DNA from: a virus
Taxonomy: Duplodnaviria > Caudoviricetes
Virus record (IMG/VR): IMGVR_UViG_3300031555_004524
Location: 160,001-224,000 of that record
Length of the DNA: 64,000 nt
Reading direction: 5' to 3' (one strand)
The notes beneath the pieces were generated by a model that did no database searches, had not been told where the DNA came from, and worked only from the letters and a program-made list of their open reading frames with translations. Shown piece after piece: positions 7,114-8,340 of this stretch; positions within the stretch are counted from its first letter, which is position 1; each line of letters opens with the position of its first letter. The translations under genes were made by a program, and so were the position numbers.

Positions 7114-7827
7114 ATGGAATATAAAGTTATAACTTTATGTGGAAGTACAAAATTTAAAGACGATTTTATAAGAGTGCAGAAAGAATTAACTCTTAAAGGC
7201 AATATTGTTATTTCTGTTGGGTTATTTGGGCATTCTGGAGATAATGAAGCTTGGCAAAATGATGGTAAAATAAAAACAATGTTAGATGATATACATAAAA
7301 GAAAAATTGACATGTCTGATGAGATATATGTCATAAATAAAAATGGGTATATCGGAGAAAGTACACGATTGGAGATAGAATATGCTAAATCTAAAGGACT
7401 TAAAATAAATTATATGGAAGAACCAAATTCTTGCGGTGAGATGGAAGTTGGACGTTGCGAATGTTGTGGTAGAGAAAATGTTCCTTTATCTAGAAAATAT
7501 TATCATTATAATAATATAAAATGCGAATGTCATTCACCTAATCATTTTATCTTGATTAGACATTGTAATGATTGTGAGCCTAAAGAACCTATATATACTA
7601 AAGTTGAGTATAGAACAGAAGATCTACATACTCCAGAAATTATTGCTAGTAATATATTACAGAAATTATATTGCGAGAATAGTTACAATCCAGATTTAGC
7701 AGATGAAATAACAAGTAAGGTTTATGATAAACTAATGGCATATTTTGTGCATCATGAAGTGTTTACAGATAAACCATATAGAGTATTTATACAAGAATTA
7801 ATAAATATAATTATACTAGCTAAATAA
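7114..7827 (+). CDS. nucleoside 2-deoxyribosyltransferase-like domain fused to Cys/His-rich region
   Basis: VITLCGS...HKRKIDMSDEIYV...GESTRLEIEYA; then CECCG, CECH, HCNDC. Confidence 0.7.
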   Translation: MEYKVITLCGSTKFKDDFIRVQKELTLKGNIVISVGLFGHSGDNEAWQNDGKIKTMLDDIHKRKIDMSDEIYVINKNGYIGESTRLEIEYAKSKGLKINYMEEPNSCGEMEVGRCECCGRENVPLSRKYYHYNNIKCECHSPNHFILIRHCNDCEPKEPIYTKVEYRTEDLHTPEIIASNILQKLYCENSYNPDLADEITSKVYDKLMAYFVHHEVFTDKPYRVFIQELINIIILAK

Positions 7828-7837
7828 CATGGGAATA
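7826..7837 (+). promoter_or_regulatory. late promoter AACA-N6-TA
   Basis: AACA TGGGAA TA overlapping upstream stop; precedes ORF-poor 500 nt. Confidence 0.55.
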
Positions 7838-8340
7838 AATGAAAAAATGGTGACTTTTGAAATGGATTTACATTGTAAAATGTATATGACTTTTTCATTG
7901 GTTGATTTCTCTTTTTAGACATTTATACCGAATATATATTTTTTTAACTATAATGAACTGTACTTCATTATAGTTAATACGCATTATGATTACTTTTTCA
8001 TTTTTTTCTCATAGCTTTCATTGTTTGTTTGCCACCATTATTTTCATTTTGAAACATACGATATTGCCGATTACATTGATCGGATATAATTATATATACA
8101 TCGCATCAATTTTATTTGACAATAACTTTTCAGCTAATCGCATAAACACATTCAACAACTGCGTTGTGCACCATCTTGTGTTGACATGTATACATAGGCA
8201 CATAACACCTCCAACGAACGTAAAGCTTGGTATATTCTTTTTGGTGGCGATGACGGACACTTATATATAATTAAAATAATCGGCAATACATGGACTTACA
8301 TCGAGTAGATAGGGCCAGTACCTTAACGGGTACTGGTCCT
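7837..8340 (+). ncRNA. candidate ~500-nt structured late RNA
   Basis: promoter to hairpin unit; nested helices 8062-8073/8277-8288, 8087-8098/8262-8273, 8099-8109/8241-8252; 14-bp hairpin 7944-7977. Confidence 0.6.
8311..8340 (+). terminator. GC-rich hairpin
   Basis: 12-bp stem with a G.U pair favouring + strand; weak U-tail. Confidence 0.65.

What the first reader, a model, noticed from the sequence alone, without database searches (positions are those of the whole stretch)
7826..8340. ~500-nt highly structured late non-coding RNA upstream of the tape-measure gene
Seen: own late promoter (7826-7837), own hairpin (8311-8340), and the next gene has a separate promoter. 3' domain is a nested rod: 8062-8073/8277-8288 (12 bp perfect), 8087-8098/8262-8273 (12 bp perfect), 8099-8109/8241-8252 (bulge plus G.U), 8162-8166/8212-8216. 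5' domain is closed by 7837-7854/8031-8049 and holds a perfect 14-bp hairpin (7944-7977) and two U-rich-loop hairpins. The only sizeable ORF lacks an RBS. I do not recognise it as tRNA, tmRNA, RNase P, an intron or another named family.
Basis: partly seen in the sequence, partly recalled or inferred. Interest (0 to 1): 0.85.

Follow-up and report, generated by a model that had tools for sequence, protein, structure and literature searches.

The report
Late phage RNA before tape-measure gene
A giant gut phage related to Bacillus phage AR9 carries, just before its tail tape-measure gene, a protein-less gene for a roughly 500-base folded RNA; relatives keep RNA genes with paired ends at the same spot but swap their middles, and these RNAs probably silence messenger RNAs by covering their start sites, though no RNA or target has been measured here.

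Summary
Real, but less exceptionally structured than claimed. The window is a 248-kb AR9-like jumbo phage. 7826-8340 is an ORF-free unit with a late promoter, a stem that starts at +1, and an end hairpin; the tape-measure gene has its own promoter. Four other lineages of the same clade keep promoter, +1-anchored closing stem and end hairpin, yet their interiors cannot be aligned although flanking genes are up to 87% identical. More distant relatives hold one to three smaller units of similar design in this slot, and AR9 has a measured start site opening into a +1 stem here. No Rfam match. The 94-aa ORF is not supported. Without the end hairpin folding is only z -2.6; the 3' rod alone is z -0.9. 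Best mechanism (0.45): base-pairing over ribosome start sites. In one distant lineage, invariant tracts pair 12-15 nt with the phage's own start sites, including sbcC. For this RNA the anti-Shine-Dalgarno motif (4 of 5 lineages) and a candidate target are only suggestive. The scan has noted similar late RNAs at other loci of AR9-like phages.

The parts
7826..7837 (+). Late (non-virion RNA polymerase) promoter AACA-N6-TA; predicted +1 = A7837; overlaps the stop codon of the 237-aa ORF
   Evidence: consensus from PMC5312081; present in L004, L005, L159, L178
7837..8049 (+). 5' module: 16-bp closing stem 7837-7852/8033-8049 starting at +1, enclosing a hairpin and U-rich tracts
   Evidence: z -4.7, or -1.8 without the 14-bp hairpin
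7944..7977 (+). Perfect 14-bp hairpin inside the 5' module
7994..8013 (+). Mostly unpaired U-rich tract, reverse complement of start-codon regions; pairs 12+7 nt (one bulged U) with window 6412-6430
   Evidence: not significant against whole-RNA shuffles (13-nt run or longer in about 21%)
8053..8063 (+). Possible second, non-consensus promoter AACA-N5-TA whose start falls on the first pairs of the 3' module
   Evidence: sequence; N5 spacing is not enriched in the genome, so weak
8062..8288 (+). 3' module: 12-bp closing stem 8062-8073/8277-8288 and inner helix 8099-8104/8247-8252; interior poorly determined
8206..8212 (+). CACCTCC, complement of a Shine-Dalgarno site, partly unpaired
   Evidence: shared with L004, L005 (p about 0.004) and, with one C>U, L159; only ACCTC in L178
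8311..8340 (+). 12-bp end hairpin without a U run; counterpart of the hairpin that ends this gene cluster in sister phages
   Evidence: strain variant G8314A turns G-U into A-U
8376..8387 (+). Separate late promoter of the tape-measure gene
   Evidence: present 35-50 nt before the gene in most relatives
8414..19198 (+). Tape-measure protein with C39, lysozyme and NlpC/P60 domains (context)
6379..7827 (+). Upstream late operon (promoter 6379; ORFs of 53, 180 and 237 aa) whose transcript has no terminator before the element; start region 6412-6430 is the candidate target

Best explanation
A late non-coding RNA gene in a cassette slot that AR9-like phages keep between a conserved 175-180-aa gene and the tape-measure gene. 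The phage's non-virion RNA polymerase starts at 7837 (inferred from motif and from AR9); the 5' end pairs at once with a distant segment, which should shield it from 5' exonucleases (inferred); the RNA ends at or is trimmed to the 8311-8340 hairpin (inferred). Exposed pyrimidine tracts (anti-AUG, anti-Shine-Dalgarno) then pair with translation start regions and damp translation of phage and/or host mRNAs late in infection (inferred; targets not shown). Frame and ends are conserved, seeds turn over. The window copy is probably two such modules in tandem. That the unit is a functional RNA gene: about 0.85; that it works by covering start sites: about 0.45.
For: Shown: same layout in all five lineages of a clade with 100% support (L178 added later by flank identity), absent from the five sister loci fetched. 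Closing stem starts within 3 nt of +1 in 5/5 and is stronger than at nearly all 208 genome-wide promoter motifs for the relatives (0-3 of 208; window modules 16 and 3 of 208); pair types change between lineages. Out of sample: 8 distant slot units have more paired 5' ends than 61 mRNA leaders (p 0.003). AR9 dRNA-seq lists two late start sites before its tape-measure gene, the upstream one (167158) opening into a 23-bp stem. TTTCAT is enriched in slot regions (12 vs 4.7, p 0.006; without the window p 0.03). In lineage L029/L059, tracts invariant in 8 sequences pair perfectly over 15 and 12 nt with the start of the phage's own SbcC-like gene and over 14 nt with another start; unselected whole-slot test p 0.007 and 0.03. 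Lineage L102/L120 carries a near copy of the 16S 3' end. The 94-aa ORF lacks a ribosome site, has no family hit, and loses its ATG or frame in two strain contigs.
Against: No transcript observed. Interiors show no detectable homology, so one family is inferred from position and design only. The anti-SD motif failed its prospective test in L178 and is not enriched outside the discovery set (Fisher p 0.40). The window RNA has no significant target among its own genes; G003 and G004 (incomplete records) were negative too, and G001/G002 are not independent. The 6412-6430 match is not kept in relatives. Late and other genes do not differ in GGAGGT use. Host unknown, so host targets are untested. 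Strain variants come from single contigs of depth 2-4 and may be errors.
Confidence: 0.45

Rival explanations
1. A cis element: a long alternative leader of the tape-measure mRNA and/or a structured 3' tail of the upstream operon that sets read-through or mRNA stability, not a free RNA.
For: End hairpin lacks the U run seen at 20 of 33 gene-end hairpins; no terminator separates the unit from the upstream operon; AR9's upstream start site was filed as a 153-nt leader of the tape-measure gene; tract 7994-8013 could pair in cis with the operon's first start site.
Against: The tape-measure gene has its own promoter after the hairpin; sisters without the unit have the same non-U hairpin directly after a gene; distant relatives stack up to three units, each with its own promoter and hairpin; no switch structure competing with the end hairpin (pair probabilities 0.9-1.0).
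Confidence: 0.2
2. A shape-only decoy or sponge: a stable RNA with paired ends that soaks up a host RNA-binding or defence protein (double-strand sensor, RNase, Hfq/S1-like chaperone).
For: Long stems are kept while interior sequence changes at least as fast as synonymous sites (0.56-0.60 with gaps vs 0.63-0.65; a neighbouring promoter region stays 0.79-0.96); U-rich single strands.
Against: No conserved interior fold; invariant single-stranded tracts with start-site complementarity in the distant lineage argue for pairing; no protein partner found (the adjacent Cys-rich gene also occurs without the unit).
Confidence: 0.15
3. A neutral relic of a decayed accessory gene or inverted-repeat element between a promoter and a terminator.
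For: Modest folding z and unalignable interiors; sisters put ORFs in the slot.
Against: Stem start coincides with +1 in five lineages whose synonymous sites are saturated; promoter kept; three perfect 12-bp repeats; single copy, no paralog in the genome.
Confidence: 0.12
4. A small-peptide or type I toxin-antitoxin locus, read from the minus-strand GGAGGTG site or the 94-aa ORF.
For: Minus strand has a strong ribosome site before ORFs of 21-37 aa and folds well.
Against: Peptides after this site differ in length (11-37 aa), frame and sequence between lineages and lack a shared hydrophobic helix; no minus-strand late promoter seen by eye in 8290-8414 and sigma-70 matches are at chance level; 94-aa ORF disrupted in strains.
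Confidence: 0.05

Closest known systems
AR9 late transcription units; start site 167158 before the tape-measure gene (Lavysh 2017, PMC5312081, Table S3)
   Same: Same promoter consensus, same slot, two promoters before the gene, stem beginning at +1.
   Different: AR9 has only a 51-nt hairpin there, filed as a leader; here 500 nt with two modules and a separate end hairpin.
C-rich-seed sRNAs of Firmicutes: S. aureus RNAIII (514 nt) and RsaE/RoxS (review PMC4152353)
   Same: Size like RNAIII; exposed C/U-rich motif complementary to ribosome sites.
   Different: Phage-encoded, phage polymerase promoter, no sequence or Rfam match, seed not strictly conserved, targets unshown.
phiKZ / 201phi2-1 sRNA005 upstream of tail gene gp182/gp277 (PMC11512511)
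   Same: Small RNA at a fixed position next to tail genes in jumbo phages with two RNA polymerases; function unknown.
   Different: Another gene and phage group; conserved in sequence and derived from a 5' UTR; not compared by sequence here.
Large phage ncRNAs: ROOL, GOLLD, phage K lnc001/lnc002 (PMC9241854)
   Same: Several hundred bases, intergenic, phage-encoded, function unknown.
   Different: No Rfam match; no tRNA nearby; no conserved ornate core.
6S RNA
   Same: 3' module is a 227-nt rod with closed ends.
   Different: No Rfam match; rod interior not significant; relatives are multibranched.

Membership tests
Any Rfam family (tRNA, tmRNA, RNase P, introns, ribozymes, 6S, ROOL, GOLLD) | Covariance-model score at gathering threshold | tested here: not met
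AR9-type late transcription unit | AACA-N6-TA/G promoter, enriched in this genome | tested here: met
AR9-type late transcription unit | Intrinsic terminator with U run | tested here: not met
   hairpin present, tail not U-rich
AR9-type late transcription unit | Measured late transcript | not testable with these tools
   uncultured phage; the AR9 counterpart start site is measured
Trans-acting anti-ribosome-site sRNA (RNAIII/RsaE type) | Own promoter, no conserved ORF | tested here: met
Trans-acting anti-ribosome-site sRNA (RNAIII/RsaE type) | Conserved unpaired C-rich seed | tested here: inconclusive
   4 of 5 lineages, partly unpaired; L178 only ACCTC; out-of-sample p 0.40
Trans-acting anti-ribosome-site sRNA (RNAIII/RsaE type) | Specific complementarity to a target start region | tested here: inconclusive
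   significant in distant lineage G001/G002, not for this RNA
Trans-acting anti-ribosome-site sRNA (RNAIII/RsaE type) | Shown repression of a target | not testable with these tools
   needs experiment
Ornate large ncRNA (ROOL/GOLLD type) | Conserved sequence core and covarying multi-stem fold | tested here: not met
Type I toxin-antitoxin locus | Conserved short hydrophobic toxin ORF with opposite-strand RNA | tested here: not met
Retron / RT-associated ncRNA | Adjacent reverse transcriptase | tested here: not met
   neighbours have no RT family hit; genome-wide only a crude motif scan
MITE-like element | Multiple similar copies | tested here: not met
   single copy in genome

The most novel reading that the evidence does not exclude
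AR9-like jumbo phages run an exchangeable small-RNA cassette slot beside the tape-measure gene: the late polymerase makes end-protected RNAs whose variable interiors act as re-targetable antisense seeds that switch off translation of the phage's own replication/recombination genes (such as sbcC) and host genes at the turn to assembly; this 500-nt RNA is a two-module, multi-seed form.
Probability: 0.25. Interest if true: 0.75.

Novelty: new variant of a known kind. Interest (0 to 1): 0.5.

Why it matters
In the papers searched here, base-pairing small RNAs were described mostly in temperate phages, and small RNAs of lytic jumbo phages had no assigned function. A slot that exists in culturable AR9, with predicted seed-target pairs in relatives, makes it testable whether these phages time their programme with antisense RNAs as well as with two polymerases. 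A simple design rule (late promoter, stem at +1, pyrimidine tract, hairpin) also finds such genes that sequence searches miss.

Tried and rejected
Rfam, ARAGORN, blastn in phages and plasmids: nothing. Sequencing runs: no RNA holder listed; a blank, not evidence. Pattern scans of viral contigs with the end hairpin and the 5' end gave no further member. Profile models of relatives do not find the window copy or each other; RNAalifold on a sequence alignment keeps only the end hairpin. Coupling to the upstream Cys-rich gene: rejected, it occurs without the unit. Idea that hairpin plus CTC tail is the general terminator: rejected, gene-end hairpins have U tails. Selective sparing of late genes by ribosome-site type: not seen for GGAGGT. 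Inversion of the 3' module: no support. Host-target scan with a relative's tract gave 31 scattered hits, three at rplA starts in Clostridia; chance level cannot be excluded. Whole genomes of L004/L005/L159/L178 were not available. Atlas search gave no function for the 53- and 180-aa proteins.

Full report
Setting. The window is 160001-224000 of a 248-kb virus record. It encodes an RNA polymerase beta subunit and a 3594-aa protein whose best named relatives are the tape-measure proteins of Bacillus phages AR9/PBS1 and phiR1-37. AACA-N6-TA lies before 55 of 233 ORFs, other spacings before 7-17, and equals the AR9 late consensus (PMC5312081). DNA holders are animal faeces and gut metagenomes. The host is unknown.

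The observation. Promoter (7826-7837), end hairpin (8311-8340) and second promoter (8376-8387) are present. Four helices are confident, one is weak and one is absent from the ensemble. Three perfect 12-bp inverted repeats exceed 2000 shuffles. The overall z of -4.3 falls to -2.6 without the end hairpin; the 3' rod alone gives -0.9, and background windows reach -2.9. Both strands fold alike. The 94-aa ORF has no ribosome site or family hit; one strain contig changes its ATG and another shifts its frame, while changes at 8288 and 8314 keep pairing and changes at 8031, 8076 and 8287 hit marginal pairs (depth 2-4, so weak).

Close relatives. A tree of tape-measure N-termini groups the window with P0001, P0003 and P0004 at 100% (quick method). 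Their loci L004, L159, L005, plus L178 (87% identical flanks), each have a 300-370-nt ORF-free unit: late promoter, closing stem, the same end hairpin, then the gene's promoter. Five sister loci lack it. The stem starts within 3 nt of +1 in all five. Interiors are unalignable and change at least as fast as fourfold sites, while a neighbouring promoter region is 79-96% identical. The window copy has two closing stems; the second begins at a possible AACA-N5-TA promoter, so it may be two modules. No terminator separates the unit from the upstream late operon, and the end hairpin lacks the U run typical of gene ends.

The slot across the family. Of 91 loci with the conserved upstream gene, 41 (15 lineages, 11 with a late promoter motif) have gaps of 170 nt or more. 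Many hold one to three short units: promoter, stem at +1, pyrimidine tract, hairpin. Their 5' ends are more paired than mRNA leaders (p 0.003). AR9 has measured late start sites at 167158 and 167250 before its tape-measure gene, the first opening into a 23-bp stem; its signal is low and the authors filed it as a leader.

Mechanism. CACCTCC is the only GC-rich 7-mer shared by the window, L004 and L005 (p about 0.004); L159 has a wobble-compatible variant; in the relatives it sits at +86 to +102. L178, fetched afterwards, has only ACCTC, and outside the discovery set there is no enrichment (p 0.40). TTTCAT, the complement of AUG AAA, is enriched. The best evidence is from lineage L029/L059: invariant single-stranded tracts pair over 15, 14 and 12 nt with start regions of their own genes, one SbcC-like, significant in an unselected test (p 0.007, 0.03; not independent). 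For the window RNA, 7994-8013 pairs with the start of the 53-aa first gene of its own operon (12+7 nt; 19 nt in one strain variant), but this is within chance and not kept in relatives. Shown: layout, conservation of ends, complementarity in relatives. Inferred: transcription, termination, end protection, repression. By analogy with C-rich-seed sRNAs of Firmicutes (PMC4152353) antisense action on start sites is the best reading (0.45), ahead of a cis leader or tail (0.2), a decoy (0.15), a relic (0.12) and a peptide locus (0.05).

Comparison and novelty. No Rfam family matches any member. Jumbo-phage small RNAs beside tail genes (PMC11512511) and large phage RNAs (PMC9241854) are known without function. 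The paper searches found no description of this slot. Earlier scan notes describe similar late RNAs at other loci, including five units 3 kb before this window, which I confirmed as promoter-to-hairpin units and for which I also found no strong own-gene match. Those notes are leads, not support.

Verdict. A real, undescribed, probably functional late phage RNA gene; new variant of a known kind; interest 0.5.

Noticed in passing
L029/L059 (G001:C1:122033 minus; G002:C1:129004 plus): A short late RNA unit in the same slot has an invariant tract that pairs 15/12 nt with the start of the phage's own SbcC-like gene; one position changes on both sides between the two genomes, another breaks.
   Followed up: partly
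L102/L120, about 190-160 nt before the tape-measure gene: Unit carrying a near copy (one C>U) of the 16S rRNA 3' anti-Shine-Dalgarno tail, able to pair with the phage's strongest ribosome sites.
   Followed up: partly
window 7114-7827; L004 3564-4554; L005 4024-4576: Cys-rich zinc-finger-like domain of no Pfam family (338 relatives at 50% clustering), fused here to a small Rossmann-like domain, tandemly duplicated in relatives and fused to DUF1653 in L004.
   Followed up: partly
window 8341-8349 and the same hairpin in L004, L007, L008, L009, L029, L158, L162: The hairpin before the tape-measure promoter is followed, about 6-12 nt on, by GTC instead of a U run; hairpins ending ORF-free units often have CTC-type tails. 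Possibly a phage-polymerase termination or processing signal.
   Followed up: partly
G000:C1:112987 minus: 39-aa ORF with one hydrophobic segment and a good ribosome site; its start shares 13 nt of complementarity with tract 7994-8006.
   Followed up: no
G000:C1:156099-156922, 160192-160412, 118879-119054, 25233-25382: Further ORF-free late units, most with stems at +1.
   Followed up: partly
L001 7159-7209 (AR9 167158-167208): AR9's secondary start site before the tape-measure gene opens into a 23-bp hairpin; possibly an unannotated small RNA rather than a leader.
   Followed up: partly
window 6423-6584: 41-54-aa ORF conserved before the 175-180-aa gene in close relatives, with a nearly invariant promoter region; function unknown.
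   Followed up: no
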